Positions 12,429-49,900 of a stretch of 64,000 nt of DNA are shown one piece after another. The translations under genes and the position numbers were made by a program. Within the stretch, counting starts at the first letter, position 1. Each line of letters starts with the position of its first letter. The notes under the pieces are model-generated. The model ran no database searches, had not been told where the DNA came from, and worked only from the letters and a program-made list of their open reading frames with translations. Origin of the DNA: Naegleria gruberi (taxonomy: Eukaryota); the NCBI GenBank assembly GCA_000004985.1, contig GG738896.1; one strand, given 5' to 3'.

Positions 12429-13864
12429 ATGATTTCATCATCAAGTAGAGGAAGTTTGAGTAGTGTTAGTAGCAATGATACTACACATCAACCATTTGTT
12501 GTGGATGAGGACTTTTTAAAGGATATTGAAAAGCATTATAGTAAATCATTGAAGAGTAAATCTTTCCAATATATTGTTGGTGTTGATGTAGGTGCAACTA
12601 ATACAAGAATTGCCATCCAATTTATTGTTAATGATGAGGATGATGAAGTATTCATGACTAAATTCCCATGTAATACTGCTACCAACTTGGCAGAACATCT
12701 TACATTTTATGGTAAAGCTTTGGTTAAAATTGTTAAACAAGGAAGTGCTGCTGGTACTATTGCTCTTGCAGGTCCAGTTACTGGAGAAAAGGTTAGAATT
12801 ACAAACTACAAGGAAAATGATCAGGAATTTTACTATTCTCAACTCACTGATACTCTCTTCCCTGCTCATAAGAATACCTTGTTGAATGATCTTGAAGCCA
12901 GTTGTTATGGTATTATTAATGTTGGCACCAATAATCGTCTCCATGAATTCTTCTGTCCATATGATAGTGCTAATAATTTTGCAACACCACAAACAGTAAG
13001 ACTTTCCGATACTAGTGAATGTGAGTAGTAGTTTAATCTCAATTATTATTGAATCATTAATTTATTCATTAGATGCTGTTTTGGCTATGGGAACTGGTTT
13101 GGGAACTGGATTGATTGTTGGAGCTTCTGGAGGTAAATTTAATGTTATTCCATTGGAAGCTGGTCACGTTCATGTTGCTACTCCTGGTACTAATTCATGT
13201 GATTTCCACGAAGATCGTGAAAGAATTGAATTCCTTAGTCAAAAGATTTATAGTGGTATTTACCCAATTGAATATGAGGATATTTGTAGTGGAAGAGGTT
13301 TGGAATATTGTTATGAATTTGAAATTAGAAATATTCCCAATGCTCAAAGAAAGAATGCTGCTCAAAGTATGTGTTTATTATTATCAATTTTTGTAATAAT
13401 TTAATTATGAATATTTTTTAAAAGTTGCTGAATCTTACTCAACTGATGTACATTCAAGAGATGCCATGATTACACACTATCGTTACTTGATGCAAGCTGC
13501 TCAAAATATTGCTATTTTGATTCCAACTTGTCGTGGTGTCTTCCTTGCTGGTGACAATCAAGTATACAATGAAGATTTCTTTAAGGAACACATTAATATC
13601 CTCCAAAAGGAACTCTTCATAACTCACCAAAAGAAAAACTGGTTGACAGACTTGAAACCATACAGACAAATGAAGGAATATAACTTTAATGTTAAGGGTT
13701 GTCTTCAAAAGGCTAAGGAACTAGCCCATCTTGATGTTACTCATGTCACTACCAATACCTCTCCAGCTAAGAACAGCTTTAAGGATGCTCTTTCTGTTGT
13801 TATACCAGCTGCCTTCTTCTCTGTACTTTCCTTCTTCACTGCTAAGAATATGTATGAAAAGTAA
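12429..13864 (+). CDS. Bacterial-type glucokinase (Glk family, EC 2.7.1.2); 3 exons (about 12429..13020, 13073..13366, 13425..13864)
   Basis: N-terminal [15 protein letters not shown] aligns with the E. coli Glk motif [38 protein letters not shown] aligns with the Glk catalytic core. Intron 1 is gtgagt..cattag and intron 2 is gtatgt..ttaaaag. Phases are consistent with ORFs 12423.., 13015.. and 13466... The assembled product is about 441 aa. Confidence 0.75.
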
Positions 13865-16768: not shown

Positions 16769-17705
16769 TTTTTTGAGATAAAATCCGATTGACCAGATTT
16801 ACAAAATGACCTGAATGAAGTGAATAATCTGACACTATTCACCGTCATTGAATGGGAATTGTTGTACAACCAGTAATTAACATCACAAAACACTGAGGCT
16901 GTTCGAATGGAAAGAGTTCATCGTTTTCATCATCCAACCTAAAAGATAAGAAATTGAGTCGTAGCGTGGCAACCTATTGAAGACATGTTTCAATTCTTGC
17001 AAAATTGAAAGAATTTCCATATCCAAACTGCTAGCCCAACCTGGCAACATTTATGTTTCGCCACCTTCTGGAGGAGAAGTTAACTATTTAATAACAGTTT
17101 CTCATAAAAGCACTGTAACTGTTTCAGAAATTAAGAAATCTGGTATACAATTTTGTGACCCAAGGAATAACAGCTAACAATTAATAGGTTTTGAAAGATA
17201 GTTGGATCTTGTTTATTTCTACTGTTTCTTGCAGTTTCTATTGGAATGGTAACTTTTGTTGTAAAGAGAAACCAGCAACAGAAATCTCATCAAACATACG
17301 AATTGTAAATAGTAAACAACCAGATTCATTGCTTTTAACACCACTTTACATTTTCATTATCCATCATCCACCTTCTAATTGACAAGAGTTCGAGCGCCTA
17401 ATTTTTTGAATCCATTCCTTACTGTAAATTTGATTTTGGTGATGAGATTATGAAAAGCTTGCTCAACTGTAGTGGCATGAACAGAGAATACTAAAAGATT
17501 ATTCCACAGTTTCGTTCATTTCTATGGAACAAATCTCAAATTCTCAAGAAGGAAGTTTTCATTCAAGCACCGACTGATGAATCAACGACAGGCACACGAT
17601 ACTCCAACGGTTTCTTTGAGTTTTATTAATAAAAAACAAATAGCACCACATTCGCTCTCTGCCATCGAGTAAAACAAATCATCCGTTAAAATATTTACAA
17701 AAAAA

Positions 17706-18469
<764 letters not shown>

Positions 18470-18544
18470 TATAACCACATAATAAGCATTAATCAATGTT
18501 TAGTTTCACTAACTTATATGTAAATAATCAGTAAATTAGAAAGT

Positions 18545-20590
18545 TTATTCCTCATCTATTTCATCATCAAAATAAGGAACATCTAGCCCTAAATGTTGTA
18601 AAAGAACTGAGGTTGGTCCATATTCTGATCCTTGAGCTTGTAAGGATCTGAGAAGATTCTTCATCACATTAGCATCTGTAATTTCCGATCTTTGTTGAGT
18701 GTCACCGAATTGATATAATTCATCATCCATTTTTTGCATTAGGTCTTCCATTTCTGGATCAATTGTTTCTTCGTCTTCCCAATCGTCATCATCATTTTCG
18801 TTATCGTCAATGTCCTCATCTTCGTCTACTTCCTCTTCTATGTTAAACTTTTCTATCAACTCCTCAATAGGATATTTCCCAAATGTTTCCTTAAGAAAAT
18901 TGTCTAAACGAGATTGATCGTTTGGTGCAGTTGATGATGAGGATATGAATGACCAATCATCCTTACTTGTCTTATGTTTTGATTTGGTTTTTACACCTCC
19001 AATATTTGATTCTTCCTCCTCAATAAATGATTTCACTTTATCCATCATATCTTTGGCTTTCTTTTCTATATCTTGTTCTCCTTCTCCACTTTCTGAAAAT
19101 CCCTTCTGAGAGAAATACTTCTCCATCTCTTCATTGGCAGAGTCAAGCCAATCATCAGTGTCAACTATTAACTTTCTCTGTTTGATTTCTTTCATTGACA
19201 AGGTAGAACCTTCCATTAAAGCTTGCTCAATGAAATAACAATTTGCTGTCTTTCCAAACTCATCATAGTATGTTTTTGATTTGGTCACAAGATTATTGAA
19301 CTTATCAGTGCCACTCATTTCCAAACCAAAGTATCCATGATCGTAGAGATGATCCACATAATCTTCAAAGGAATCAAAAATATCGATTGGTTTTTCCGCA
19401 TGATAGTACATTTCCAGTCCACATAATATCTTGAACCCAAGTTCGTATGCTTTTTCTTGTTTGTCTGTTCTCTTATTGCTAGGTCTGTAGATTGAAGCAA
19501 GTTTTGGAACATCATTCACGTCTATTCTACTCGATATTAATTGTACATATTGACATCTATTTACATTGACAGAATAGTATGTGAAATAATCTCTTAGTGA
19601 ACCATTATCTGATGATGGCTCAGTTGGTAAAAATCTCGAAAATGATTTTAGGAATTTCTCAGTGACAGTGTTTTTACGTGTCAAGTAATAAATACACTTG
19701 GATACAATCTGAGGGTGCTTATCGAGAAGTCTAATCACATCTAAAGGAAGGTAACAAGCTATTTTTTGAGAACCAAACTCTACTGCTTCCTTTGGGAATG
19801 AAGAAAGTCGAGTTGAAATGCAATTTTGAATAGAGTCTTCACTTTGACAGTATTTGGATTCTCTGAAAACCATTTCTACTGCCTTGTGGATATTTTGTAT
19901 TGGTTTGCTAATTGGAAATACTTCATAATATGAATAGGAAGGAGTTTCTGGCTGGTCAGGCAGAATATGTAATTTTCCATTATAAATAAAAACTCTATTG
20001 GTTGTCAATTCGGGTTCGTCATTCATCCATTCTGCAATGTAATCAGCTGCTTCAATTAGAAGGAATTCACCATCTTGGTCAGAAATTTGTACCACTACTT
20101 GATCTTTGAAATTCTTAGAGAGCTCAACAAGAAGATAGGTAATGAACCATTCATCAATGTTGGTCTCTGAAAAATTAACTCTTCCACAAATGTATGGATA
20201 AACAGGTTGATTATTTCTGAGAAACATTTCCTCGGTGCAATCTTCTAATTGCTCTGGAGGAGAAACAAATGTAATATTGAACATATCACCTTGCCAAACA
20301 TAATTTTCGGGAATTCTTTCTTTGAGGAAGTTATGAATCTCGCATGATTTCTCAAAGAATAATTCTTCATTAAAATCTTCAATCGTTTTTGTTTCATCCT
20401 TAAATCTTGATGTCAATTCTGGTTGTACAATAAATATTCTATATGATACAAAGTCATGTGTAAAGTTTTCAGAATTTTTCTGGAACAGATTCTTCAATAC
20501 TTGGTCAATTGGTAGATTTGGATCATAGCAAAACGAATCCTTATTATTCTTAGACTTGGTCTTTTTCTTATTTGTTTTAGGTTTTCTCAT
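18545..20590 (-). CDS. Ecdysoneless (ECD/SGT1-family) homolog
   Basis: [58 protein letters not shown] aligns with human ECD ([55 protein letters not shown]). It has an acidic DE-rich C-terminus ending ..[19 protein letters not shown]. Confidence 0.8.
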   Translation of the reverse strand: [681 protein letters not shown]

Positions 20591-25698: not shown

Positions 25699-25836
25699 GG
25701 CTCTGTAACTTATTTTCCAATGAATTGTACCATATAATAAACCTTTAGTTTCGTATTAATCTGTATGTAATATTGAAATGGAAAATTATTTGAAATGCTT
25801 TTAGCAGATTAAGGATAGCAAAAAATTAGTAAAATT

Positions 25837-25909
25837 TATACCCTGTGGGACTCGAACCCACAACCCCCGGCTCCGTAGGCCGATGCTCTTCCAATTGAGC
25901 CAAGGGTAC
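25837..25909 (-). tRNA. tRNA-Arg (anticodon ACG)
   Basis: The reverse complement reads GTACCCT TG GCTC AATTGGAA GAGC A TCGGC CTACGGA GCCGG GGGTT GTGGG TTCGAGT CCCAC AGGGTAT A. The CTACGGA anticodon loop matches eukaryotic tRNA-Arg-ACG. The T-loop is TTCGAGT. The cloverleaf has a G1-U72 wobble. Confidence 0.8.
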
Positions 25910-26073
25910 TTTCTTTGAAGTGATATCATTATTCTTTTTATCATTTCCCTTTTTTGTACAGCTAAGGTTCAAGTTTAATAATGCAGTATTAATAATTGTG
26001 GGATTTGAACATTATCCTTAGTGCTTTGAGTTATTAATAACCGTACCAAATTGTATTACACCTCGGAAAAAAA

Positions 26074-26946
26074 ATGTCCAAAAACCAATTCGATTTGTTG
26101 GGAGATGATTCGCTAGTTAAAGATTACGAAAAACACAGAATCATTAATGAAAGAAATCAACCACTACTCTTCCGATCACTAAAAGAAAAAGAAAAATCGA
26201 AAAAGCGAACCAAAAGAGCTGAATTTGAACTAATATATGATATTGAGTATTTGTGGTTTATAGTATTGGAGTTTCTTCCTTTGAGAGATTTATTAAGATG
26301 CTCCGTAGTGAATAAATTCACATGTGGATTGATTCATTCCTATAATTGTTATGGAGAAATATTGAAAAGAGATTTCTTTAATAACAATGAAAATGATAAG
26401 AAAGAGATGGGAAAAATTGTAAAGAATATCGATAATACTGGAGTTTTTGCTTACTTGATTCAGGATTTTATTGGAAAAGCCAAGTTAACTCCTCAAAAAT
26501 TACAAACAATTAAGAATACTATTATGCAAGAACCAGACTCTAAAATGAAGAGAATATTTGGAAAGATTTATTTGGCCATTGAGGAGGAGATTGAAAGTGT
26601 ACAAGAAGAGGCAGAGCTATTGAAGCAACATGTTAGAAGCTTCTTGATTGAAAAGCTTTCTAAAAAGAAGACTGAAAATATGAAAACTAAGGTTAAGGAA
26701 TGTGCTCACAACCATTGTGCAATTTCTCAAATCAGTTTACCTCCATTTACATTCAGACTCGAGTGCTTGGATTGTAAAGTGGCTGCAAGTACCAACTTTA
26801 GGCCAGAAAATGTTTTCAGAAAGGAAGTTCGATCAAGACTATGTAGATACCGAGTTCTGGACACATCAACCAAATTTGACAAGTATGTCTTGAATACTAC
26901 TTCACATTCTTTTGAATTTGATCCAGATACTGTGTATAATTGCTAA
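26074..26946 (+). CDS. F-box domain protein, hypothetical
   Basis: LWFIVLEFLPLRDLLRCSVVNKFTCGLI is an F-box. The rest of the protein has no recognisable domain. It ends with a Cys-rich CAHNHCAISQ..CLDCKVAAS segment. Confidence 0.5.
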   Translation: MSKNQFDLLGDDSLVKDYEKHRIINERNQPLLFRSLKEKEKSKKRTKRAEFELIYDIEYLWFIVLEFLPLRDLLRCSVVNKFTCGLIHSYNCYGEILKRDFFNNNENDKKEMGKIVKNIDNTGVFAYLIQDFIGKAKLTPQKLQTIKNTIMQEPDSKMKRIFGKIYLAIEEEIESVQEEAELLKQHVRSFLIEKLSKKKTENMKTKVKECAHNHCAISQISLPPFTFRLECLDCKVAASTNFRPENVFRKEVRSRLCRYRVLDTSTKFDKYVLNTTSHSFEFDPDTVYNC

Positions 26947-26995
26947 GATAATGAATGGGATTAAATAATTCAATTTATTTCTTTATAAAACAAAA

Positions 26996-27952
26996 ATGCA
27001 CAAGCAAATACCTTCACCATCCTCAACTTTGATCAAACTTGATAAATTCTCAGATACTGATGATTGGCCAGTACAAGTTTCGGAATGGACTTGTCCAAGT
27101 TGTTCTCATCAAAATCAAAAATCATACAAGTGTTGTGAAAATTGTTCTTTCCAATCATCTCAATTCTTTTTCAATAACAGAGGAGCACACTTTAAATCGG
27201 AGAAGAAGATTGACAAGTTTTATCAAGTTTTTAAAAAGAAAAAGGTTTTCCTACCTGTAGTCCACGTTTGGGATGTTGCTCATGCTCTAAAGAATGCAAA
27301 ATTACTCTACGATCATCACGTAGATGGTCTCTTTCTCATCAATAATAATTGCTCGGCTGACATCTTGATCGATGCTATTAAAAGTGTTAGAAGGGAATTT
27401 CCAGACAAGTGGCTTGGTATTAATATTTTGGGTATTTCTATTAGGGAATTATTTCTGAAGATTGCTGATTTGGATTTTGATGGATTGTGGTTGGATAGTG
27501 CCATGATTACTGAGGAGAGTGAATTCCAGAATATTGCAGAATTCATTCAGGATCAATTGGGGAGTATGAATTTCAAAGGATTGTACTTTGGTGGAATTGC
27601 ATTTAAATATCAGAGGACTGTTATCAAAGATTTGAAAAAAGTAATTGATATTGCTAGCAGCTATGTGGATGTTATTCTCACATCAGGTGAAGCAACTGGA
27701 ATGCAAATTAAGGAGGAAAAACTGAAAAAGTTTACAGAGCTAGTCAAATGTAATCCTTTAGGAATAGCTTCTGGTGTGACGAATAAGAATTTGATCACAT
27801 CAATTAAACATGCAGATGTGTTCATTGTTGGTACATATATTGAGCACTACGTAACAGGAGATATTGTTGAGGAGAAGCTGGAAGAAATGTTAAAACTATT
27901 TCAAATGTACAATGAAATGCTAGAGAAGAGGAAGCAAGATGATATTCAGTAA
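26996..27952 (+). CDS. RanBP2-type zinc finger fused to a BtpA/SgcQ-family TIM-barrel protein
   Basis: ZnF_RBZ: WTCPSCSHQNQKSYKCCENC. BtpA-like motifs: DVILTSGEATGMQ, PLGIASGVTNKN, ADVFIVGTYIE. Confidence 0.5.
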   Translation: MHKQIPSPSSTLIKLDKFSDTDDWPVQVSEWTCPSCSHQNQKSYKCCENCSFQSSQFFFNNRGAHFKSEKKIDKFYQVFKKKKVFLPVVHVWDVAHALKNAKLLYDHHVDGLFLINNNCSADILIDAIKSVRREFPDKWLGINILGISIRELFLKIADLDFDGLWLDSAMITEESEFQNIAEFIQDQLGSMNFKGLYFGGIAFKYQRTVIKDLKKVIDIASSYVDVILTSGEATGMQIKEEKLKKFTELVKCNPLGIASGVTNKNLITSIKHADVFIVGTYIEHYVTGDIVEEKLEEMLKLFQMYNEMLEKRKQDDIQ

Positions 27953-27960
27953 GGAATAAA

Positions 27961-29429
27961 TTAAATCTTTTTTAGTTTGACAGTAAATGAATTATTGGCA
28001 GAGCTGGTAATTGTTCTTATGGAGTGACCTTGTAATTCCTCAGATTCTCCATATTGTGCTACACTCGAGGAAGAAAATTGGAAAATTTGACCACCACTTC
28101 CTTGTGATGAGAGAGGTGTGGGTATTTCTCTTCCTTGATACTCGTTCAATCTTCCAGTTTCATCCTTGAAATCTTTCACTGAGCAAATAAAATCTGGATT
28201 CATCTTGCTTACCGATTCACATACATCCAAAAAACTGTGTGGGAGGATGTATCCGCCACTGACCTCCAGTGAGTAAGGTTTGTTATTGCCATTCTCGTTA
28301 TTTGTTCTTGGGAATAATTTACATTTTTTCAAGGTGGAATTAATGAAAATATGTGGACTGATTATTTGAGGAACATCATAATCTAAAAATCTCAAATGAT
28401 AATTTCCCAAAAAGTCAATTAGTGAGTGAAGATTGCTTCGTCCAATAATAACCAAGTACCTATACTGATTGCTGATTTCCTCTGGTCTGGATGCCAACAT
28501 GACGTTATCTGCCTCAGTTCTCATCTCTGGCTTATTCACAGAATGTTCACTAAATTCAATGTCCTCAGCTTTCAATCTACTAATTAAATCCGAACTTGGC
28601 TGAGAGACGATACACCTTTTGGCTTTTGATGAAAAGGCAGATTCGTTTAAAAAGATGAAGGAACTTTTCTGGCCATAATCTGGAAGGAGGTAAAAGTAAG
28701 GGCATAGACCTTCAATGAAGGATGTGAAAACTGAAATTAATGCCTCACACCAACAATTATACCTCTCATTTAAAAACTCGATATCTAATCTTTGTAAATT
28801 CTTATCAAAAGTCTCATAAACATCTGACAAATTTTCCAAATTTTCTCTGTTATAGTTAGGTAATTCTCTTATTTTGGAATACATAGAGTGAGGTAAAAGA
28901 GATGAAGGATAAATATGATAGAGAAGGCCTTTGAAGAATTCACTTGAGGTTTGCGGTTCTTGATGAATTGGTGAAGGAGTCATTGGACTCTGACTAAAAC
29001 TTTGTGAAAATCTCGTATTCGTTACAACATTACTAGTAGAGTTACCAGTTACAAAACTGGACAATCCCACAACTTTAGAATTTCCACTAATATTATTCGT
29101 CCAAATAAAATTCGCCGATGACTTGAAAGTTATAAATGTTTTCAAAGTATAATCAATAGGAATATTCTTGATCAATTTAACATCCAATTCTCTTTCCTGA
29201 TTGGCAATCTTTTTCTTATTCGCTACTGCTGATGGCTTTCCCAAAAGAGCAAATCCTTGAAAGAGTTTCTTTTTCTGCTCTTCGGAAACTTGTCTCTTGG
29301 TAGCACCCACTCCGAGATTTAATAATTTATTGTCAGCCTCCGTCAGCTTTGGCTTCTTGCTTTCGGTGGTAGATGAGGAATCGGCAGAAGACGAGTGATG
29401 ATCATTTTCAGAAGGGGAGGATCTTTTCA
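27961..29429 (-). CDS. Hypothetical protein with a basic, probably nuclear N-terminus
   Basis: The ORF track starts at a TTG. The first ATG is at about 29429 in an aaaaaaaaATGAAAAG context. Lys-rich N-terminus (KKPKLTEADNKLLNLGVGATKRQVSEEQKKKLFQGF). No assignable domain. Confidence 0.45.
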
Positions 29430-29529
29430 TTTTTTTTTGAATTTGTTTTTTATTAAATTTTGGCGCCAAATTTGAGTTATTCAACAGTTATTTGTTAATA
29501 TCTCAAAGTGTTTAAATAGTATTTGACAA

Positions 29530-31849
29530 TTATTGTGTAATTTGGAATACTTCAATTTCTAAAACTCTAAAATTAGCACATCCAGCCAAATATTTCGAAA
29601 TAGACTTTGAACTATAATTGCCCGTATCTGGAAGGTAATACGTGTGTCCAAATTTCGAATAAGAATTGAGATTTTCATTGCAATTATCAGCAATGCAAAA
29701 GTCATTTCCACCTCCAAATATTGGTAAATAAGAAGCTTTTGCAGAAATAGCAAATCTGTGTTGACCTGGCTTGATATTGAACTTGTTAAAAATATATACC
29801 ATTCCATTGCTAGTCACTTTTTGAAATATTTTAAAGATGAAAGCTGAAGTATCAGAGACGTATTCTACACCAGTGTTAGCCCAACTTTGCATTGTGAATC
29901 CTCCAAAAATATGTCCAAAATCTGACTGAATAATTGTAAGAGTAGGTCCCTTATTATCACAAAGTTCATGGAATTTTGATGCCTTGAAACCATCTCTTGA
30001 ACCTCTGTAGAGTAGAGTGGGCTTAATACGAGATTTGGTATGAACATTAATCTCATTGAACATTCTAGAATTTGGAATAATATTTGAGTTGAAAAAAATG
30101 TTCTTGAATTTTTCAGAATTACAATCAAAGGTATCATTATCGGCATTGAAAATGGCTTGTTCGAAATTGGAATTGGCAAAATCACACATTCTCAATTTAC
30201 ATGTGGAAAAGTTGCACTTTTTCAAGTTCGAGTCAAGAAATTTGCACTTGTCGAATAGCAAGTTCTTGAATTGATAATTTTCAAAGTTAATGGAATGGAA
30301 GGAACATTCGGTGAAGGTAATGTCATACAATTGAGATTCGGGAAATACGAATTCTCTATCGAAAGAGCATCTCCAAAATTCCACACATATGATTTCACAA
30401 TTTTCAAATTTGGTTTGGAAGGAACAATCTGAAAATCCAATATTCAACAATTTGCAGTCCTTAAACTTGTTGTTTTTCAAGTTTTCTAAATGACAATTTT
30501 CAAATGTGAAATCTGAAAATATGCATTCAGTAAAGCAATACGCCAAATTTAAATTGGTTTCGAATAGAGATCCAATCTGACTGTGTTTGACTTCTATACC
30601 TTGAATTGTAAGAGAGTTAAGTAAATCAGGGGAAATTTTGGAAAGATTAATTTGACACTTTTTCAATGTACTTCCCTTAATTGTATTCGAAAAATCGAAA
30701 TGTCTCATGTCCATATCAGAAAATGTGCATACATTGAGAGTACATTCTTTGCATTGCAAACTCTTTACACCAGTAAAGAACGATCCATCAAGAGTACAAT
30801 TCACAAACCTGCAACTTTCAATATTATTTGATTGATTGAATTGAAGTTGAACTCGACATGAAATCATTTTAGCACCTGCAAAGTTTGCCTTATCAATCAA
30901 ACAATTCTCAAATCTCACATTTCTAAATGTAGTTTTGGAAAAGTCACAATTAATGAAATCATAATGATAGGAGAATGTAATTAATGCAATTTCCATTCCA
31001 CTGAATTTCATATTTCTAAAGTATTTGGAATTCATGTGATTGTTAAATAATTGACCAAGTGTACTATTGATTGGAATTTTCTTCAATTCCTTCCAATAAT
31101 TCTTCAACTTGAAAACCTTACAAGCAGAAATCAATTGTTGCTTCAAAGTTGGTGATAAATCACTACTTGCAATGATATTGCCAAACTTGAACCATTCCAA
31201 TAGGTGCTTGAATACTGTTGGATCACAATCAACAAAGAAGGAACCATTCTTTTCGGTAAAGATATTGGTTCTTTCACCTTTCAATAATTTGATGAATAGA
31301 TTGGTTTCGTCCTCTCTTTTTGTGGAGGTGAAATATTTCTTATTGGTCATTATTAGTTGACCACCAATATTGAAATATATTGGATCCAGTTCCATTTCGT
31401 CATCATCGTCATCTTCAAACTCATCTTCGGATTGTTCTTCTTCAACTTGTTTCTTTTCTGCCTCCTCAACTGCTTCTTTTTGCTTTCGTTCAATTTCTTC
31501 CAAAATTGTCTTCCTTGTTGAACATTCTTCCAAATGTTCTAGAATTCTCCCTCTAGCTTCTTCTTTATTGCAATAACTACAAACTACCATCAGCTTGTCA
31601 ATGTAGTTTTTAATGTTTTTCGGAGCAGGTTTAGTTTGAAAATTGGCATCATGACATTTAGGACAAGTTGAAAGGGACTTGGCACATGCTAAACAAAACA
31701 TATTTTCACAAATAGTATGGAAAACAGGATCAGACAATGGCAGAGAACAGGAAGAACACAGCCACTCTTCTTCTACCTTCTCCACAAACGAAAAATCGAG
31801 TATTGTCGCATGAGATTGTGGTGTCACCTGCTGCTTCACTGTCAACATT
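29530..31849 (-). CDS. RING finger + TRAF-type zinc finger + BTB/POZ (T1/KCTD-type) + pentapeptide repeats + C-terminal TLDc domain (KCTD9-like core with extra RING/TRAF and TLDc)
   Basis: RING: CSSCSLPLSDPVFHTICENMFCLACAKSLSTCPKCHD. TRAF ZnF: CSYCNKEEARGRILEHLEEC. BTB: IYFNIGGQLIMTNKKYFTSTKRED..FVDCDPTVFKHLLEWFKFGNI. More than 30 A(N/D)LxF-type pentapeptide repeats follow. TLDc: LLYRGSRDGFKASKFHELCDNKGPTLTIIQSDFGHIFGGFTMQSW. ATG at about 31849; the track's 31866 is a TTG. Confidence 0.75.
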
Positions 31850-37827: not shown

Positions 37828-40800
37828 TTAGGCCTTAGTAGCACATTTTGTTCCTTTCCATCCCTCATTACACGAACACTTTCCATCAGTAATGCAAATT
37901 CCATGTTTCGAACAAACCAATGGATTCGAAGCTCCATAACCAAAACAAACGAATTCTGTCGTTTCACATTCATTTCCAATTCTTCCTAGAGGACAAGCAC
38001 ATGTATCTGGACTAGTACAATTACCAACTCCACTACAAACTAATCCACTTACAATTTTTCCATAACAAATTGGTAAGGAACATTGAGTAGCTCCATAACC
38101 AGAGTTACATAGACAAGTATCAGGAGATATGCATTGACCTCGATTGGTACAATTCAGGGAACAGATTGGAGTGTTACAAGTTTCACCAATCCATCCTTGG
38201 TTGCATTGACATGTGAAAGGAGCTGTACAGTTGCCATTACCATTGCAAGATTGAGCACAGAATGGTGGTTCGTAAATTCGTTGATGGAGAGCATCAATAT
38301 CTGGATCAGAAACTGAATCACCACAAACAGATTGAAAACCTGAAATGTCAGAAGGTAAAATTGGACTTGATGTCAAGTTGGCATCTGTCATTTGGGCATA
38401 TGATTCAGTAATGAAACGAACATCATCCATAATAAACTCTCTATAATCCAATGTGATGTCATCAACTGGTTTTTGCATAAAGGTTACTCTTTGAATTGAG
38501 TTCAAACCTGTTTGATTTGTGAAAGGAATGTCACTAACTGGAATTCTGACACGAGTTACTCTTGTGTGATCAATCTTGAAATGTTGAATATACTTTGGAT
38601 CAATGTAAATTGCTGGAATATCAGTGAATGCAGTATTCTTAATTTCAGAAAAGAAAATATTCAAATTTAATTGACCTTCAGAAATGGATTGGATAAAGAA
38701 TTCGAAATATCTAAATTTAGAAAGGTCAATTAATTGAACAGGGCCTCCTTTAGTATAACTTTTAGTAATCTGAACTTTACCCATTCCCATTCCAAATCTA
38801 ATACTTGTACTTCCACAAATTGCTGCGGTTGAGTAATCTTTCTGAGCTAGTGGAACATCTTGTTTGGCTACAGTTTGTAAAACCCATCCAGTTTGAGTTG
38901 AGATATCAGTCGATTCACTGTAGAACTTGAACATGTCATCAGAAGAAATAGCTCCACATGGTTGACTGGCAGAAATTGAAATAGGAAGTGAACATCTTGG
39001 TGTACCAAATTGAGTAATACCATTGTTACAAAATAATTGGGCTCTCAAATGACCATTTGGATTAGTACTTGTTCTCAACAAGACGAAAACTTCTCCCTTC
39101 AAAAGTGAGATAATTTCATCATATGAAAAATCCATTGAAAATCTTGAAACTGAATAAGGACTTGGATAAATTGATGGTTCTTGTAAAAATCTGACAATTT
39201 CACCAATTTTACCAATTCCAACTTGAATTTGAGTTGCTAAATGAGATAGATCATGATAAACTGTAAAATCAACTGTTCTCTTATTTGCTAATAAGCCAGC
39301 AAGAACTTTACCGTTTCCTCCAGCATTGATCATGCTTGAGCTTACTTGGCAAGGTTGTAAAATTCCAGAGAATCTTTCTTCAAGAGTTACCTTTTTGATT
39401 CTATCAATGCTTGCGGTTGGGAAATCCCAATTATAGACTTGACAATTATTATTTGGACATGTGGCAGTGATTGAAAACTTGGTGGAATAACCAGTATATA
39501 GAGAATATTCATCATAATATTCAGCAAAGGCAGTTCTTCCACCAGTGTTCTTAAAATGCAAGAATAAATGTTCAGTTTGATTTTCATAGAAATAAGAATT
39601 TGGGTTGACCATTAAATCGTCAATAGAATTGACACGAGGCAATGCTCTCTGACTCATTGATGCTGTTTCATATCTGATATCGAGAACGGCAGTTCTTGGA
39701 TATTGAACAGCTAATACAATCCAATCATTATTTGCAATCGATCTCAAATAATATTGCAAGTCATTTGGAGTTCCAATATTTAAGGCCCATCTCAATACAT
39801 AAACATTCTTCAAAACTAAATTAGAATCCATCCAGAAACCTCTTGTTCCCATATTCCATCCATGTACTTGATCATATTTACCAGGATTAGAAGTATCGTG
39901 AATGAAAAGTCTTGGCATTTTAACAGTCAACTTGTTAAGGTTGGGATCACTTCCAAGAGGTGAACTAGTTGAGAAACCTGCATAATTGACAAGAGTTAAA
40001 GCACCGTAACCTTCTTTAAAGACAGGACAATTATAACTATTCCAATCTGGTTGAGCATTACAACCTGGAACAGTCAAGAAAGAATTATTAGAAACTGACC
40101 ATCCCCCTCCGGTGAATCCTGTCTTACTTCCATCAGTATCCAAAACAGTCATACCTCTATTACCATCTGTAGGTGCTTCCAAGTAGAATGCACTGTTTGA
40201 ATTTACAAAAGTCAAATTTCTCAATCTTCCTCCAGTTTCGTATTTGAAATTAGCATTTGACAAGTTTGTAATAGCTCCTGCCTTTCTATACGAATTGGAC
40301 TTGTAATTTCTAAATACGGTATTTCTTACGTAGGAAGGTCCTCCATTATCATAAAACTCATATGCCTTAAACTCCTCAGTGTTAGAGAAGAAACCAGGAT
40401 AGGAACGTGAAACATCAATGCCAGCTCTGTAAGTCTCGCCTACATTATCACTTTCCGCCTCAAATACTGAATCTTCCACAACACTTGGTTCACCAGCGAC
40501 ATCAATACCAATTCTAGAGTCACCAACAAACATATTTCTCAAAGTAATTGTGTCTGCTCTCAACCACAAAGCCCACTTTCTAATTTTGAAAGCAACAAAG
40601 TTTTCAATAATGCTTTCAACGATGGGTTTACTTTTTGAGCCACGAACTGGATAAGGAGGTTCTACAGGAACCCAGGTGTCATTTTCAGGAAATCCATTGA
40701 CATCTACAAAGTCATCAATGTGAAGACCGACATGATTAGCAGAGTGAACAACGTTATTCTTGAATGAACCAAGTGGAAGCATTCTAGGTCTAATCAATGT

Positions 40801-42263
40801 GGTATTGGCATATTTATCTTGAACTAGACCGATAGCATACTCTGGAAGTGAAAACCAATAGCCAAATTTACCACCAATAGCTCTGTTTCCCTCAAAATAA
40901 TTCATTGCCTTTTGTTGTGTAAGAATTGTGTAAAATTAAGGAATTACTTACATTGGTAATCCAGAAAACTGATACATCGTTATCTGTAGGTATTATTTGA
41001 AGCGGGTCTGAATCGATAATTGGTAAAACTTTAGCTCCCAAATTATTTTTGAACAAGTTGTACATTTCTGATCCATTTTCCAAGAAAAAGGCATGTCCAT
41101 TGATATTATAACAAACATTATTCTCAATTTGAATATAATTTGAATCATGAACAGTGATACATCTTTGATAAGAATTATAAATACTGTTATCCTTTAGAAT
41201 AAAAGGTTTGACAGTAGAGTTCAATGCCTTATCTCCTAATAAGTGAAAGTGAATTGAATAACGTCCCATTAAACCCTTTAAAATATAATTGTTAATCATT
41301 ATAATTCAATAGAATAAACTCACCTTTTGTCCCATTCGTCTCAATTCCACACCAACCATTTCGAATTGTTCAACAAGACGAATGATAACATGACCACCAA
41401 ATGAAGAAGAAGCACTGGATACATCCCCTTCAAACACAATATTCCTATTGAGTTTGGCAACTTCTCCTCTTGTAACTCCACTTGCATAGTGAGTGAACAA
41501 GAGTGTTTGGTTGACTATAAAAGTAGTCGAGTTAATAATTGAAACAATGGTTCTTTCCTCACTCTGATCAGGAAATGGAACACCAACTCGCCAAGTTGGA
41601 AGGGTGACTTTAGTTTTATCTAGAAGTTCTCCGTAATCTGTCGAGGTCAATAAGATGGAATCGCCAACTTTCCAATTGGTTGGAGAACGAGTCTTGATAA
41701 TGGTTGTTCCTTTGACGGCACTTTCAGCCAATTCTACCCAAGATAAACCATCAACAGAACCAACGATTTGAATGAAAGAACCTGAACAAGATGTAAAATT
41801 CATTCAAATGTCAAAACTTACCTGACATGGCAGCAAGACCTTTGGCTCCACCACTACTTCCATCAAATGGATCAATTCCAATAATATTGGAAGCAGTTCT
41901 ATTTCCATAGAAAGTAACCACAATTTTACCAGTAATTGGACAACTAGAGCTGCCAGCAATCAATTTACCTCCCTTGTCAACTCTAATAAATTGGAGAGTC
42001 AAATTTAAATTGACATTGTTAAATATCAAGCTTGCATTTTGTTGGACAATAATTCCATACAACAAAACACCAGGTGACTTATCCAAAAGCGTATTTTGTG
42101 AAATGGTAATGGTAGAATTGACCTTGTTCCAATCAGCAATCGAAGAAAACATTTTCAAGCCAGATTGTTGATGTGGACATTGACCAACTACCATCTTTAC
42201 ATTTCCAGCTACTAAAAACAAGATAGTTATTAGTAGAATAGTTTGTAAGAAACGGTTTAACAT
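37828..42263 (-). CDS. Secreted G8-domain / right-handed beta-helix (PbH1) protein with C-terminal EGF-like modules (CEMIP/TMEM2/PKHD1-like architecture); 4 exons (about 42263..41832, 41791..41324, 41275..40952, 40908..37828)
   Basis: Signal peptide MLNRFLQTILLITILFLVAGNV. G8 domain in exon 1. Beta-helix segments (IHFHLLGDKALNS.., NNVCYNINGHAFFLENGSE). C-terminal Cys-rich EGF-like modules (CNGNGNCTAPFTCQCNQGWIGETCNTPIC..). Introns are gtaagt..ttcag (40 nt), gtgagt..ttaaag (48 nt) and gtaagt..aaaag (43 nt). All phases were checked against ORFs 41811.., 41306.., 40892.. and 37828... Confidence 0.7.
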
Positions 42264-43933: not shown

Positions 43934-46900
43934 ATGCAACAACCACATTCCAGAACGTTTCTCTATTTGCTTTTCATATTAATATTGCAAGTGTGTTTGC
44001 AAGTTCAACAACATTCCACCACACTAGCTGTCAACACATGTTGGGGATATTCAGCTACTGACATTTCGAATGTATGTGGAGGTCATGGTTTCTGTCAAAG
44101 TACTGATTCTTGCTATTGTGTAGATTCAACGAGTAGTAATACTTTATATTCATCAGGAGGATCCAACACTCTCTATCAGGAAACTTCTCTATGGTCCACC
44201 AACTCTCAATTCGAATTGAAACAACAAAATGATGGTAATTTGGTAGTTTATACGAGAAGTGGAGGAGTGGTTTTCTCTTTCTCAACTTGGCAACAAACAC
44301 CTGATACTCCCTATACTTTAGTTCTTTCTGGGGATGGTACATTACAAGTTAAAAGTGGTGGAGGTGCCATTATAAAGACAATTTCAGGAGCATGTGGTGG
44401 TACAGCCCCTTACAAATTACTAGTCCAAAATGATGGTAATATAGTGCTCTATGGAGCACAGAGAGAAGTTTGTTTTGCTTCTGGAACATCTCAAGGTGGT
44501 TATTCACTTACGTATAATTGGGGTGGAGACCAGTGCAATCAATATCTTTGTTACGGGTTGACTGGTGCTAATGCATGTAATGGTCACGGCTCTTGTAATT
44601 CGAGGGATAGTTGCTCATGTAATAATGGATACAGTGGAAGTCAATGTACTGAGTACTACTGCAATAGTGTACTGTATTCTCAGATTGGTACAGTTTGTAA
44701 TGGTCATGGAACGTGTACGGCTCCAAATACTTGTCAATGTACTGGTGGATATAATGGTACTTTTTGTGCTTCATATCAATGTTATGGATTTGAATCGAAT
44801 GACCCAGGAGCATGTAGTGGATTTGGAACTTGTTCTTCACCAAATACTTGTACTAATTGTCTTGCTGGAAGATATGGATCTGAGTGCCAATATTATGATT
44901 GCGGTGGAATTAGATTTGATCAACCAAACGTATGCTCTGGAAGAGGAGAATGTGGTTCTAAAAACAATTGTACTTGTTCAGAGCCATACTTTGGAGATAA
45001 TTGTGAAAATTTTATGTGTAATGGAATCATTAACAATTCTACGCTCGTTTGTTCAGGCCATGGAGCATGTTCTTCACCAGAGAATTGTACTTGCCAAGAG
45101 GGTTACTTTGGAGAGAATTGTGAATTGTTTGAATGCAGTGGAATTTTGAAAAATGAATCAAATGTGTGCACTGGATTTGGTAATTGCACAGCATTTGATA
45201 GTTGTCAATGTGATGAGCAACATTATGGTAAATTCTGTGAAATTAATATTTGCAATGGAGTACTCTCAAACAGTCCAAGTGTTTGCTCTTCACATGGTCA
45301 ATGTAACTCATTCAATAATTGTACTTGTGATGAAAATTATAGTGGACAAAATTGTGAAATTTATGATTGTTATGGAGCTTCTAAAAATTCCTCCTCCGTA
45401 TGCTCTGGAAGAGGAACATGTTCAGCATATAACAATTGTAGTTGCTCTGCACCTTTTTATGGATCTGATTGTGGATTATATAATTGTTTTGGAGTAGAGC
45501 ACTTGAACGACAGTTCATGTTCATCCCATGGTTCATGTGATTCACCAAACAATTGTACATGTAAACCTGGATATTATGGAAACCGTTGTGAGTTTCATAA
45601 TTGTTATGGCACTCTCTTCAACAGCTCAGGTGTTTGTTCCACTCATGGACAATGCTTATCACCAAATAATTGTTTCTGTGAAGCAGGATTCTATGGACCA
45701 GAATGTGCAGAATATGATTGTTTTGGAGTTCATAAGAATTCTTCAAATGTTTGTTTCCAACATGGAGCTTGTTTGAGTCCAAATAATTGTTCTTGCCAGG
45801 AAGGATACTTTTCGTTTGATTGTTCTAATCATAGATGTTATGGATATTTATTTAATGATACTACAAATGTTTGTAATGGCCATGGCTCATGTCCTTATCC
45901 AAATAATTGTACATGTCAATCAGGATATTATGGATATCAGTGTGAATCTCATGAATGCTTTGGAAAGTTATTCAATATCTCGACTGTTTGTTCCACCCAT
46001 GGACAATGTTTGTCACCAAATAATTGTTTCTGTGAAGCAGGATATTATGGACCAGAATGTGCAGAATATGATTGTTTTGGAGTTCATAAGAATTCTTCAA
46101 ATGTATGCTTCCAGCACGGTACATGTTTGAGTCCTAACAATTGCTCATGCCAAGAAGGATACTACGGATTCGATTGTTCTAATCACAACTGTTTTGGAAT
46201 TCTGTTTAATGATACCATGAATGTTTGTAATGGTCATGGTTCTTGTTTTGTTCCAGATAATTGTACATGTCATCCAGGATATTATGGAAAAACCTGTGAA
46301 ATGCACAATTGTTTCAATATTTTGTTCAATGACTCAAATGTTTGCTCAGGAAAAGGTCAATGCTTATCACCAAATAACTGTTCCTGTGTTGATGGTTTTA
46401 CCAATAAGGATTGCTCAGTGAATATCAGTCCTTTCCAAATCAACCTCACAAAATACGAAGAAGTTGTTTATTTGGAGTTTGATAACAAGACTATTAGTGT
46501 TGAAATTCAATTGACAGATCGAGTATTGAGCCAAAGTCCAAATATTTCCTACACTTGGTCTTGTGCTCAGTGCGATGGACAAAATGTGGTGTATTATGTT
46601 GATTCTAATCGTTTGTTCATCAACTCTACATTAACTGATGTTACTCAAGCAGGCAATTACACTTTCATTGCAAACGCATCCATTGCTAATATTCAACCAT
46701 TCCAAAGTAGAAAATCCAACATTGAGCAATTCAAATTGGTTGTAAAGTATGATTTGAATCAGCCAACTTTGGGCTCCTTTGGCTTACCTTCTGTACTTGT
46801 ATCTAATACTCAAGATCAAACTATTTCAACTGTTATTAATAGTATCACTCTTAATCAAACAACTGTAAGATACTTTTTGGGTTGTGGTAGAAATTGCTCA

Positions 46901-49900
46901 ACTTTGGTTTCGTATTTATACGAAGTGAAGGCTGGAGTGTTTTATTACAAAAAATCAGGTTCTGTAATGGCACAATTTGAGAGCTCTAATCTATTGACCT
47001 TTTCTCCATCTGTTCCTATTCAAGCAACCATTCCATCTGATTATTTGAATGAAACAGTCTCATTCACATTTACAGTTATCAATAACAAGCAACAGAATAT
47101 CAGTTCAACTGTACAAATTCAAATTGTCTCCTCTGCAAGCCCACCAACACGACTGACAAACATAGTGGATGTTGTACCAACATATGGTATTTCAATGAGT
47201 GAAAAGTTTACAATTAAGGTTTCGGAGTGGGTTGCATCACCTGAACTGTTACCACTAAAATACGCTTTTGGATATTTTGATAAATCCAAGGCAGAAGCTG
47301 TGAGATTGACCGAATATGGTCTTAATACTACGTTTTCATCTTATCTACCTTATATTAGATCATCATCTAGCTCTAAGGCAAGAAGCATCTTGGAAGCTAC
47401 AGAGACAATTGCTTTGGTTGTCTTTGTACAAGACTCTCTTGGAAATGTCGAAACTGAAACGGCAGCTAATGTAACAGTATCTCCATTTAATGGAACTCAA
47501 GAGCAATATATTGAGGTTGTTAAATCTTTGAGCGGAGAATCACTATTGGTTGCCTCAGTGGATCAAACATTCACAAGCTTAGCATCATCATCATTGGTTT
47601 CAGCCCTCATTTCTAATATTGAAATTGATCCAAAGAATCCTTCTTCTTCTCTTTCCAGCTTGGAAACGCTCACGTCCAACAATGAAACACTCACAGCCAA
47701 TACAGTTACTCAGGTCATCAACAAATTGGATTCATTTATCTCCAATCTAACAGAGCTCTATTTAAGTGAACTTGCTCTATATGGCTATGTGAAATCCGGG
47801 ATGTCCAGTACAGACATTAGCAAAACAGTTCAAATTATTTCGAACTGTTTCTCTACTTCATATGATGCCGAAAAAACCAAATCAACAGCAAGTCTCGTCA
47901 CAGGTCTGATTTATTATGGAACTATTCCTTCTGTTGTAGACACAACATCCACAGAATTACCAACAACCTCTTACAAATCAACTTCTATTAACATTACTGT
48001 TTCTAGTTTCAACATGCCAACACCGAGTACGAATCTACAATCAGTCTCAGATACTGAAAGCAAGGTAGCAATGAATTTGACATCTATTTTGTCCAAATAT
48101 GGTGCCTATTCGACAACATGTGGTGCAACAATGATAATTTATTCAAAGAACACTAATTATGATTCCTCTGTTAGTAACATGACTATCAGTTCCTCTGTTA
48201 CTGACTTTAAATTCATGAGAAAACTGGATATTTTAGTATTGAAAAATTTGGATTCACCGCTCATACTTTCCTTCAATGCAGCCACAATCCCAAGCTCAGT
48301 GATCGCCAACTCCACAGTTACCAACAGTACGTATCATTGTAAGTATTGGGATGAGAGTCTTAAATTGTGGAGCAGCAATGGATGTTTATTGAATAGAGTT
48401 TCATCAAATTCAATTGAATGCGCTTGCTCTCATACAACTATGTTTACAACTTTCCTTGAATCCAAGACCACAGCACTTACTGTTCAACTCAAGGATCAGG
48501 TTTCGTCTTTATACTATGCCCAAATATCATTCGGTATTATTTACTTGATTGCCGCCAGTGCTATTTTGGTTGGATTGATTGTTTTGAGAAAATCGCAACC
48601 TGTTAGCTCTAGATTACTGACTCCATATGTTGGTTTGATTGCCTTAATTGTGGAATGTACATTGATTTACATAGTACAAAGATCTGTTCTCGTTGATCAA
48701 TTGAACTCTGCCAATACTCAAATGTGGGAAAATGGAGATACTGCTGCCAACATTATTGCAAACATTGTAATGATTATTGTAAACACTCTCAATTTAACTG
48801 CCATTTTCTGTTACGTCATGCAAGTTTTCAGATTCCAATTCATGAAATTGCTTTACAAGAAACTTTCTGATAATAGAACTCAAGCTCAAAGTGCAACAGT
48901 TTTGAAAGTATTGAAGTATACCACTTCTCAAATATTATTTTATTCATTGATTGGAATTTTTACTGCCCTAAATATTGCCTATTGGGTTATTTGGGTCATT
49001 CTGAGAAGAACTGGAGTTCTCACATCAACACAGTACACCTATGTTGTATCCCTTTCTTATACGGTTTGCATTTTGGCATTTGGTTTGATAATTACTGCTG
49101 TTGCAATCCTTGACATGATTCTCTCCTCAAAGAAGGAAGTTGAGCAAAAGAAAAATAGAAGAAAAGCTATTAACTTTTCACAACCAACCAGCAACTTTAG
49201 TCTTGATAATGCTGAAAATGTACATGAAAAGAAGAAAATTAATAGGAATGTATTCTTGAATGCTTTCAATTGGTTTACATCAATGGATGGACCACTCTAT
49301 TTCAGAATGGAAATGTTCATTTATATCGTGTCTTTCATTTTGCTAATATTGAATCAAGTTATTGGATTGAGTAGCTTAGCATACAGATTTGAGAGTTTGA
49401 CAATGTTTAAACTTGCTTTGACTTTTGATTCCATTTCCTTCATCTTTGAGGTACTCTATGTGGTCTCATATATTTTAGTATTTGGTGGTTATGCACTCAT
49501 TGTCGCAATCATTTACAAGGTTAGACAACGTAGAACAAGAAAGGAAGAACAAAAGAAACAAAATGAGGAAATTATGAATCAAGAACTTTACAATACTTTG
49601 GAATCTGAAGAAGGTTATGAACTCTTTGCCAACTTTTGCGAAAAAGAATTCAGTTCAGAAAATCTATTCCTCTTCTCTGATATCAAAGCAAGTCCAGATG
49701 TGGCCTCTGGTGAAAATCTAGGAGGATTACTCTTCTTTGCTGAGAGAATTTATGAAAAGTACATCAAGACAGGTGCAGAAATGGAAGTTAACATTCCATC
49801 AAAGAGTAGAACTGCTTTTGTCCAACTCTATGAAAAATGTAAGAAAGTTGAAACAAACTCTTCATTGGAATTATTAGATTCTAATTCTCTAGCTAAATCT

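What the first reader, a model, noticed from the sequence alone, without database searches (positions are those of the whole stretch)
29530..31849. Five-module fusion: RING + TRAF-ZnF + BTB(T1) + pentapeptide repeats + TLDc
KCTD9-type BTB-pentapeptide proteins are known, as are TLDc proteins (the OXR1/NCOA7 family). I am not aware of a described architecture that combines these with an N-terminal RING/TRAF zinc-finger pair on one chain. This looks like a self-contained cullin-3 adaptor / E3-like module with an oxidative-stress-type TLDc effector.
Basis: partly seen in the sequence, partly recalled or inferred. Interest (0 to 1): 0.6.

Follow-up and report, generated by a model that had tools for sequence, protein, structure and literature searches.

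The report
Naegleria RING-BTB-pentapeptide-TLDc fusion protein
This is a real, intact single-exon gene of the amoeba Naegleria gruberi that strings five known protein modules on one chain; it belongs to a small, fast-turning-over family confined so far to Naegleria and Willaertia, and it is an uncharacterised domain combination rather than a new kind of system.

Summary
Window 29530-31848 (-) is one uninterrupted 772-codon ORF, identical to Naegleria gruberi XP_002672659.1 / D2VTE4 ('TLDc domain-containing protein').

All five modules are present:
- Pentapeptide repeats and TLDc are highly significant in Pfam.
- The T1/KCTD-type BTB just passes Pfam. With a family profile it reaches 1.7e-12 to KCTD1.
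- The RING and the TRAF-type C2HC finger fail Pfam on the single sequence. A profile of seven relatives matches the LNX2 RING+ZnF at 1.7e-16 and TRAF5/6 at 4e-9 to 1e-6. An AlphaFold model matches the same folds.

The fusion is not unique. N. gruberi D2VDD4 and D2VNL9 and single-exon N. fowleri A0A6A5C0N9 have the same order. Sub-architectures occur in Naegleria and Willaertia.

- The RING has a family-invariant shifted ligand pattern (C2-H-C5).
- This copy has Ser where the E2-contacting Ile/Leu sits.
- A sister-strain contig carries a premature stop.
- N. fowleri has a broken tandem copy.

The function (an oligomeric TRAF/LNX-like E3 or scaffold that uses TLDc as a docking end) is inferred. 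Cul3 binding and an 'oxidative-stress effector' role are untested. I found no paper describing the architecture. Interest is modest.

The parts
29530..31848 (-). Complete single-exon CDS, 772 aa plus TAA stop; identical to N. gruberi XP_002672659.1 / D2VTE4
   Evidence: chance of a stop-free run of this length is about 6e-27
31654..31758 (-). Variant RING finger, aa 31-65: C31-x2-C34-x9-H44-x2-C47-x4-C52-x2-C55-x6-C62-P-x-C65. The canonical His position is Asn49. The E2-contact position is Ser33.
   Evidence: Ligands are invariant in 7 family members. Profile hits LNX2 1.7e-16, TRIM21 2e-11, TRAF5 3.8e-9. Fold hits LNX2, TRAF5 and TRAF6. Pfam RING models are sub-threshold only.
31522..31581 (-). 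TRAF/LNX-type C2HC zinc finger, aa 90-109: C90-x2-C93-x11-H105-x3-C109
   Evidence: The four ligands are invariant in the family. Alignments to TRAF5, LNX2, LNX1 and TRAF6 extend through this finger. There is no Pfam zf-TRAF hit.
31387..31521 (-). Helical (coiled-coil-like) linker ending in an acidic tract (EDEFEDDDDDEMELD), aa 110-154. It is about 90 aa longer in the paralogues.
   Evidence: AlphaFold helix 110-144; alignment A3
31075..31386 (-). T1/KCTD-type BTB domain, aa about 155-258
   Evidence: Pfam BTB_2 21.7 bits against cut-off 21.4. KCTD17 1.4e-4 with the single sequence. Family profile: KCTD1 1.7e-12, KCTD15/16 about 4e-11, KCTD9 4e-8. Foldseek TM about 0.75.
30109..31002 (-). Pentapeptide-repeat region (predicted right-handed quadrilateral beta-helix), aa about 283-580, about 55-60 units with register shifts
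   Evidence: Pfam Pentapeptide_4 5e-23, Pentapeptide_3 1e-12, Pentapeptide 3e-10; period-5 analysis
29539..30090 (-). C-terminal TLDc domain, aa 587-770
   Evidence: Pfam TLD 1.2e-21. mEAK7 1.3e-3 with the single sequence. Profile hits Skywalker 8.6e-9, mEAK7 9e-8, OXR2 3e-4. More than 10,000 homologues, mostly through this domain.

Best explanation
Shown.
- This is an intact, single-exon N. gruberi gene for a 772-aa modular protein.
- The module order is variant RING, TRAF/LNX-type C2HC zinc finger, helical/acidic linker, T1 (KCTD-type) BTB, a pentapeptide-repeat region of about 300 aa, then a C-terminal TLDc.
- It belongs to a family found so far only in Naegleria and Willaertia. That family keeps the order RING-ZnF / coiled coil / BTB / TLDc, with or without the pentapeptide insert.

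Inferred.
- The N-terminal half works like a TRAF/LNX-type RING module. The coiled coil and the T1 BTB hold it in an oligomer.
- The pentapeptide beta-helix acts as a rigid spacer or binding surface.
- The TLDc domain is the docking end. By analogy with every characterised TLDc protein, its most likely partner is the V1 sector of the V-ATPase.
- The protein would then be an oligomeric ubiquitin-ligase or scaffold acting at a TLDc-bound target.
- In this particular copy the RING is probably weakened for direct E2 recruitment, because Ser33 replaces the Ile/Leu contact. It may therefore act with a partner or only as a scaffold.
- The family appears to evolve by gene birth and death.
For: Gene identity and intactness.

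Domains. The structure model of aa 1-262 has pLDDT 79-90 over RING-ZnF-helix.

Same order in other proteins (segment phmmer, Pfam, names):
- Full order: N. gruberi D2VDD4, N. gruberi D2VNL9, N. fowleri A0A6A5C0N9.
- RING-ZnF-BTB-TLDc: N. gruberi D2VZ46, Willaertia KAL9651469.
- RING-ZnF-BTB-pentapeptide: D2VR88.
- BTB-pentapeptide-TLDc: D2VQJ8.
- The N. fowleri gene is 3300 nt, which is 1099 codons plus a stop, so it is also a single exon.

Zinc ligands: all are invariant across the family, including His44.

LNX2/TRAF6 RING+ZnF as an active E3 unit: PMC4741457.

TLDc and the V-ATPase: PMC8608904, PMC12139955.

Turnover: a broken tandem copy in N. fowleri and a nonsense allele in a 97.6%-identical strain.
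Against: - No expression, interaction or activity data exist for any member.
- The RING fails Pfam thresholds and lacks the canonical His (Asn49).
- Ser33 replaces the hydrophobic E2 contact. From my own knowledge, BRCA1 I26, c-Cbl I383 and TRAF6 I72 are the equivalents, and BARD1, which does not bind E2, has Arg there.
- The TLDc is only distantly related to the V-ATPase-binding ones, and profile matches cover mainly its first half.
- Oligomer orders of RING dimers, coiled coils and T1 BTB tetramers or pentamers need not be compatible.
Confidence: 0.55

Rival explanations
1. It is a KCTD-style Cullin-3 substrate adaptor. The T1 BTB oligomer recruits Cul3-Rbx1, which supplies the catalytic RING. 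The pentapeptide and TLDc regions bind the substrate. The protein's own RING-ZnF is non-catalytic: a dimerisation or regulatory module, BARD1-like.
For: The BTB is KCTD-like. KCTD5 binds Cul3 and KCTD9 carries pentapeptide repeats (PMC8127222). Ser33 sits at the E2-contact position and the canonical His is missing. The single-sequence RING hits include BARD1 at 8e-4.
Against: The best BTB profile matches are KCTD1, KCTD15 and KCTD16. From my own knowledge (Pinkas et al. 2017), these are the KCTDs that do not bind Cul3. Six relatives keep Ile/Leu at the E2 contact, so the family RING looks functional. Cul3-contact residues are not defined well enough in KCTDs to score here.
Confidence: 0.2
2. 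It is a decaying or functionally dispensable paralogue in a rapidly turning-over family. The ORF is still intact in strain NEG-M but is under relaxed constraint.
For: In a 97.6%-identical environmental Naegleria contig the same gene has TTG to TAG at codon 552. It also has 4 nonsynonymous against 2 synonymous changes in 880 nt. Ser33 is a derived loss. N. fowleri carries a broken tandem copy. The best relative in the 50%-clustered library is only 35% identical.
Against: 772 stop-free codons in AT-rich DNA (about 6e-27 by chance). Every zinc ligand and every invariant TLDc column is retained. The nonsense change rests on a single metagenome contig with a chimeric end, and the counts are too small for a dN/dS test. 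Neighbouring genes show similarly noisy ratios.
Confidence: 0.15
3. It is a gene-model artefact. The RING/ZnF part and the BTB-TLDc part are made as separate transcripts or proteins, and the long ORF is only a read-through of two adjacent genes.
For: No transcript data could be consulted. Family members with only part of the architecture exist: RING-ZnF alone in Willaertia (110 aa) and BTB-pentapeptide-TLDc in D2VQJ8.
Against: There is no stop codon or frame change anywhere between the modules. The same order on one ORF recurs in two more N. gruberi genes and in a single-exon N. fowleri gene. The RING-ZnF-BTB-TLDc order is also kept in Willaertia.
Confidence: 0.05

Closest known systems
TRAF (TRAF5/TRAF6) and LNX1/LNX2 N-terminal RING + zinc-finger E3 modules
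   Same: A RING is immediately followed by a C2HC finger and then a helical or coiled-coil segment. Profile matches span both elements (LNX2 1.7e-16, TRAF5 3.8e-9, TRAF6 1.3e-6). The fold matches too.
   Different: There is no MATH/TRAF-C or PDZ domain and only one finger. LNX's extra N-terminal finger is absent. The zinc-ligand pattern is shifted (His44-x2-Cys47 replaces Cys-x-His). This copy lacks the E2-contact Ile.
KCTD family, especially KCTD9 (T1 BTB followed by pentapeptide repeats)
   Same: A T1-type BTB is followed directly by pentapeptide repeats. KCTD9 is described as the only human protein with pentapeptide repeats (PMC8127222).
   Different: The repeat region is far longer, at about 300 aa. 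It has an N-terminal RING-ZnF and a C-terminal TLDc that no KCTD has. The BTB is not specifically closest to KCTD9 (4e-8 against 1.7e-12 for KCTD1).
TLDc proteins (OXR1, NCOA7, TBC1D24/Skywalker, mEAK7/Rtc5p, TLDC2, IFI44)
   Same: It has a C-terminal TLDc domain (Pfam 1.2e-21; PDB profile hits).
   Different: The N-terminal partners differ: LysM/GRAM, TBC and EF-hand in the known proteins. This TLDc belongs to a divergent protist-rich subgroup with an invariant FH..CD motif. V-ATPase binding is untested.
Insect BTB-BACK-TLDc proteins (Bombyx Bmmp, Drosophila CG7102)
   Same: BTB and TLDc sit on one chain (bioRxiv 10.1101/2021.07.26.453796).
   Different: Those have the classical BTB+BACK type, not T1. 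They have no RING, zinc finger or pentapeptide repeats.

Membership tests
RING finger (C3HC4 / RING-HC) | Eight zinc ligands with spacing C-x2-C-x(9-39)-C-x(1-3)-H-x(2-3)-C-x2-C-x(4-48)-C-x2-C | tested here: not met
   Seven Cys are in place, but the C-x-H histidine is Asn49 (N/Q/M in all relatives). An invariant His44 lies 3 residues before Cys47, giving C2-H-C5 with a 4-residue gap to Cys52. Whether His44 binds zinc was not tested.
RING finger (C3HC4 / RING-HC) | Significant match to RING models or structures | tested here: met
   Pfam is sub-threshold only. The family profile hits more than 100 RING chains, with LNX2 at 1.7e-16. Foldseek hits LNX, TRAF5 and TRAF6.
RING finger (C3HC4 / RING-HC) | Hydrophobic E2-contact residue between ligands 1 and 2, and Pro after ligand 7 | tested here: inconclusive
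   Pro63 is present and invariant. The C-x-(I/L)-C position is Ser33 here but I/L in six relatives. The functional consequence is inferred from other RINGs.
TRAF-type zinc finger | C-x2-C-x11-12-H-x3-5-C finger directly after the RING, matching zf-TRAF or TRAF structures | tested here: inconclusive
   The pattern C90-x2-C93-x11-H105-x3-C109 is invariant. Alignments to TRAF5, TRAF6 and LNX run through it and the fold matches. There is no Pfam zf-TRAF hit at E<=1, and there is only one finger, not a series.
KCTD / T1-type BTB (Pfam BTB_2) | Match to BTB_2 above the gathering score, and the T1 fold | tested here: met
   21.7 bits against 21.4. Profile to KCTD1 1.7e-12. TM about 0.75 to KCTD17/1/10.
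Cullin-3 substrate adaptor | Direct binding of the BTB oligomer to the Cul3 N-terminal domain | not testable with these tools
   No sequence rule separates Cul3-binding KCTDs from non-binding ones. Needs a pull-down.
Pentapeptide repeat proteins | Tandem A(D/N)LXX-like units, significant Pfam match | tested here: met
   Pentapeptide_4 5e-23 in 5 stretches, plus two more models; period-5 signal over aa 283-575.
TLDc proteins | Pfam TLD above threshold, with conserved glycines and the C-terminal E-x-W/F strand | tested here: met
   77.8 bits against 24.5. Invariant G, FGG, GG and EIEVF columns are kept. PDB TLDc hits.
TLDc proteins | Binding to the V-ATPase (V1-B/A) | not testable with these tools
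   Shown only for yeast and mammalian members (PMC8608904, PMC12139955).

The most novel reading that the evidence does not exclude
The Naegleria/Willaertia family is a previously undescribed class of oligomeric RING E3 ligases. It would use a new zinc-ligand arrangement (C2-H-C5, with His44 replacing the canonical His). It would also use a TLDc domain as substrate receptor, coupling ubiquitination directly to the V-ATPase or another TLDc target, for example at the contractile vacuole. That would be the first link between TLDc proteins and the ubiquitin system.
Probability: 0.12. Interest if true: 0.55.

Novelty: new variant of a known kind. Interest (0 to 1): 0.3.

Why it matters
The biochemical role of TLDc domains is still being worked out, with V-ATPase regulation as the current lead. 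A natural fusion of TLDc to a TRAF/LNX-like RING module and a KCTD-type oligomerisation domain suggests a concrete, testable link between TLDc targets and ubiquitination. The family-invariant shifted RING ligand (His-x2-Cys in place of Cys-x-His) is a small structural curiosity. Otherwise this is a lineage-specific shuffle of well-known domains in a protist rich in such shuffles. It is already present in public databases and has no functional data, so its immediate importance is limited.

Tried and rejected
- The search for homologous proteins never returned the Naegleria relatives. It gave one TLDc fragment, bacterial pentapeptide proteins and two short Willaertia-like RING-ZnF proteins, so the family was assembled from the search of protein representatives.
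- Single-sequence AlphaFold of the full protein was useless (pLDDT 38). Only aa 1-262 with 5 relatives gave a usable model. No model was obtained for the pentapeptide and TLDc parts.
Alignments A3 and A1 were too divergent for pattern search.
- The afdb50 fold library was unavailable, so architecture relatives outside the top 150 HMMER hits could not be surveyed.
- Exact-sequence contig look-ups for this protein and for D2VDD4 were not on record, so no transcript assemblies were found.
- Literature searches for the domain combination, for TLDc or pentapeptide in Naegleria, and for the accession numbers found nothing relevant.
- No second family member lies in the window or elsewhere in it (six-frame search).
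- Neighbouring genes are functionally unrelated, as expected for a eukaryote.
- I considered a specific KCTD9 orthology and rejected it. The BTB is no closer to KCTD9 than to other KCTDs.
- My first dN/dS attempt used a wrong frame and was replaced.
Full report
**What is there**

The window is Naegleria gruberi NEG-M nuclear DNA. It is about 33% GC and densely packed with long ORFs that encode eukaryotic domains.

The finding corresponds to one minus-strand ORF. The ATG is at 31848 and the TAA at 29532-29530, giving 772 codons.

The translated product is identical, residue for residue, to XP_002672659.1 / EFC39915.1 / UniProt D2VTE4. That entry is auto-named 'TLDc domain-containing protein' and sits on a 331,721-bp scaffold.

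With this base composition, a stop-free run of 778 codons has a chance probability of about 6e-27.

**Testing the five modules**

The Pfam results on the single sequence were:

| Module | Pfam result |
|---|---|
| Pentapeptide_4 | 5e-23, five stretches |
| Pentapeptide_3 | 1e-12 |
| Pentapeptide | 3e-10 |
| TLD | 1.2e-21, aa 587-770 |
| BTB_2 | 21.7 bits, cut-off 21.4 |
| zf-RING_5 / zf-RING_6 | sub-threshold only, E 0.017-0.033 |
| zf-TRAF | no hit |

On Pfam alone, three modules pass and two fail. Other evidence rescues the two that fail.

- The N-terminal 139 aa match the TRAF5 RING+ZnF1 crystal chain 7l3l at 6.6e-5, across aa 17-112. They match the BARD1 RING at 8e-4.
- I aligned the N-terminal module with six relatives (alignment A1). 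The resulting profile matches LNX2 RING+ZnF (5din) at 1.7e-16, LNX1 at 5e-12, TRIM21 at 2e-11, TRAF5 at 3.8e-9 and TRAF6 at 1.3e-6. It also matches RAG1 and RNF125.
- For LNX, TRAF, RAG1 and RNF125 the alignments run through both the RING and the following C2HC finger.
- An AlphaFold model of aa 1-262, built with five relatives, has pLDDT 79-90 over aa 21-140 and 50-84 over the BTB.
- Foldseek against the PDB returns LNX2, LNX1, TRAF5 and TRAF6 for the first part. It returns KCTD17, KCTD16, KCTD1, KCTD5, KCTD9 and KCTD10 T1 domains for the second part, with TM about 0.7-0.79 on the target.
- The LNX2 paper states that its RING plus C-terminal finger is the structural equivalent of TRAF6 RING+ZnF1 and is an active E3 unit (PMC4741457).

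The BTB family profile matches KCTD1 at 1.7e-12, KCTD15/16 at about 4e-11 and KCTD9 at 4e-8.

The TLDc family profile matches the solved TLDc domains of Skywalker/TBC1D24 (8.6e-9), mEAK7 (9e-8) and zebrafish OXR2 (3e-4).

The period-5 hydrophobic signal runs from about aa 283 to 575 with several register shifts. That corresponds to roughly 55-60 pentapeptide units.

Between the finger and the BTB lies a predicted long helix (aa 110-144) that ends in an acidic tract.

**The fusion is conserved, so it is real**

An exhaustive HMMER search found 10,424 relatives at E<=1e-3, nearly all through the TLDc domain.

I searched the best 150 hits with each segment separately. I took Pfam assignments and source names. 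The results were:

| Architecture | Proteins |
|---|---|
| RING-ZnF / BTB / pentapeptide / TLDc (full order) | N. gruberi D2VDD4 (710 aa); N. gruberi D2VNL9 (685 aa, gene model starts inside the RING); N. fowleri A0A6A5C0N9 (1099 aa) |
| RING-ZnF-BTB-TLDc, no repeats | N. gruberi D2VZ46; Willaertia magna KAL9651469 |
| RING-ZnF-BTB-pentapeptide, no TLDc | D2VR88 |
| RING-ZnF-TLDc | N. fowleri / N. lovaniensis |
| BTB-pentapeptide-TLDc | D2VQJ8 |
| BTB-TLDc | other N. gruberi genes; a Rhizamoeba transcript; a cluster that includes the sponge Oscarella |

The N. fowleri gene spans exactly 3300 nt for 1099 codons plus a stop, so it too is a single exon. Its neighbours differ from those here, so it is not a syntenic orthologue.

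Recurrence of the same module order on uninterrupted ORFs, in several genes and three genera, argues strongly against a fused gene model. I could not obtain transcript data.

1. *The RING is a conserved variant.*
   - In all seven aligned members the ligand pattern is C-x2-C-x9-H-x2-C-x4-C-x2-C-x(5-8)-C-P-x-C.
   - The canonical 'C-x-H' histidine is N, Q or M (Asn49 here).
   - A histidine three residues before that cysteine (His44) is invariant.
   - The simplest reading is that His44 has taken over as a zinc ligand, giving C2-H-C5. This is an inference and was not tested. I could not inspect model coordinates.
2. *This copy lacks the E2-contact hydrophobe.*
   - All six relatives have C-x-(I/L)-C. 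So do LNX2 and TRIM21, and TRAF5 has Phe at that position.
   - This protein has C31-S-S33-C34.
   - From my own knowledge, this is the key E2-contact position (BRCA1 I26, c-Cbl I383, TRAF6 I72). BARD1, which does not recruit E2, has Arg there.
   - This copy may therefore be a weak or partner-dependent E3.
3. *The family turns over quickly.*
   - Four kilobases downstream of the N. fowleri full-length gene lies a broken copy: a RING-ZnF-coiled-coil ORF, an in-frame stop, a BTB ORF, a pentapeptide ORF, and no TLDc.
   - A metagenome contig from a second Naegleria strain is 97.6% identical over 4.6 kb. In it, this very gene has TTG to TAG at codon 552, with four nonsynonymous and two synonymous differences in 880 nt.
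   - That rests on a single contig with an odd end, so it may be an error. The numbers are too small for a selection test.

**How it most likely works**

- Shown: the anatomy, and its conservation in a family so far confined to Naegleria and Willaertia (Heterolobosea).
- Inferred: the RING-ZnF-helix is a TRAF/LNX-like ubiquitin-ligase head.
- Inferred: the T1 BTB, whose relatives form tetramers or pentamers, multimerises the protein together with the coiled coil. KCTD5 is a Cul3-binding pentamer (PMC8127222).
- Inferred: the pentapeptide beta-helix is a rigid spacer or interaction surface. It is dispensable in some paralogues.
- Inferred: the TLDc is the docking end. The only experimentally supported activity of TLDc domains is binding the V-ATPase V1 sector and driving its disassembly or assembly (PMC8608904; PMC12139955). 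An oligomeric E3 or scaffold acting at the V-ATPase is therefore my leading guess, held at low confidence.
- Caveat: this TLDc belongs to a divergent subgroup with an invariant LLYRGSRDGF..FH..CD signature. Nothing has been tested for that subgroup.

The main rival is a KCTD-like Cul3 adaptor whose own RING is non-catalytic. Lesser rivals are a decaying paralogue and separate transcripts.

**Comparison with what is known, and novelty**

Each module is ordinary, and several pairs of them are already known:

- RING+ZnF in TRAF and LNX.
- T1 BTB plus pentapeptide in KCTD9.
- BTB-BACK-TLDc in insects (Bmmp / CG7102).

I found no paper that mentions the combination, TLDc in Naegleria, or any of the accession numbers. 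However, the proteins have been in public databases since the genome releases, under automatic names.

I rate it a new variant of known kinds: an undescribed, lineage-restricted domain architecture with a conserved RING ligand variant. It is not a new system.

My survey was limited to the top 150 HMMER hits.

**Verdict**

The architecture claim is right. The claims of uniqueness, 'self-contained Cul3 adaptor/E3' and 'oxidative-stress effector' are not established.
- Interest is 0.3.

Noticed in passing
L001 (ENA ERZ929261 contig k127_510745) 1-917, matching window 29530-30409: A metagenome contig from a second Naegleria strain is 97.6% identical to window 25836-30409. It carries TTG to TAG at codon 552 of this gene. 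Its first about 40 nt match window 30959-31003 out of frame, which could be a deletion or an assembly chimera.
   Followed up: partly
L002 (N. fowleri VFQX01000027.1) 17241-18891: This is a broken tandem copy of the family, 4 kb downstream of the intact single-exon member at 10001-13300. It consists of a RING-ZnF-coiled-coil ORF, an in-frame stop, a BTB ORF and a pentapeptide ORF, with no TLDc. Several further family genes lie on the same 730-kb contig (FDP41_001763, _001771/2, _001798).
   Followed up: partly
window 31750-31758 (aa 31-34): This copy has C-S-S-C where all six relatives have C-x-I/L-C, so the usual E2-contacting hydrophobe of RING domains is missing.
   Followed up: partly
window 43934-50077 (+): A 2047-aa ORF has many EGF/teneurin-like repeats and a C-terminal RGS domain (Pfam RGS 2.6e-9), giving a receptor-like RGS architecture. 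A related EGF/CEMIP-like ORF lies at 37828-40905 (-).
   Followed up: no
window 27961-29484 (-): The gene immediately downstream starts 46 nt after the stop. It has no Pfam hit in my scan. Its near-identical copy on L001 is recorded with PF27662 DONSON.
   Followed up: no
P0004 (JGI metagenome protein, 1833 aa): The second-best hit overall is a protein made of seven tandem TLDc domains (Pfam TLD 3e-151, 7 stretches). TLDc is heavily expanded and shuffled in uncultured eukaryotes.
   Followed up: no
alignment A6 (TLDc domains of 14 relatives): This TLDc subgroup has invariant F-H-x2-C-D and near-invariant D-x-C-N motifs that are not highlighted in the OXR1/NCOA7 literature. A conserved His/Cys pair might indicate a metal or catalytic site.
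   Followed up: no
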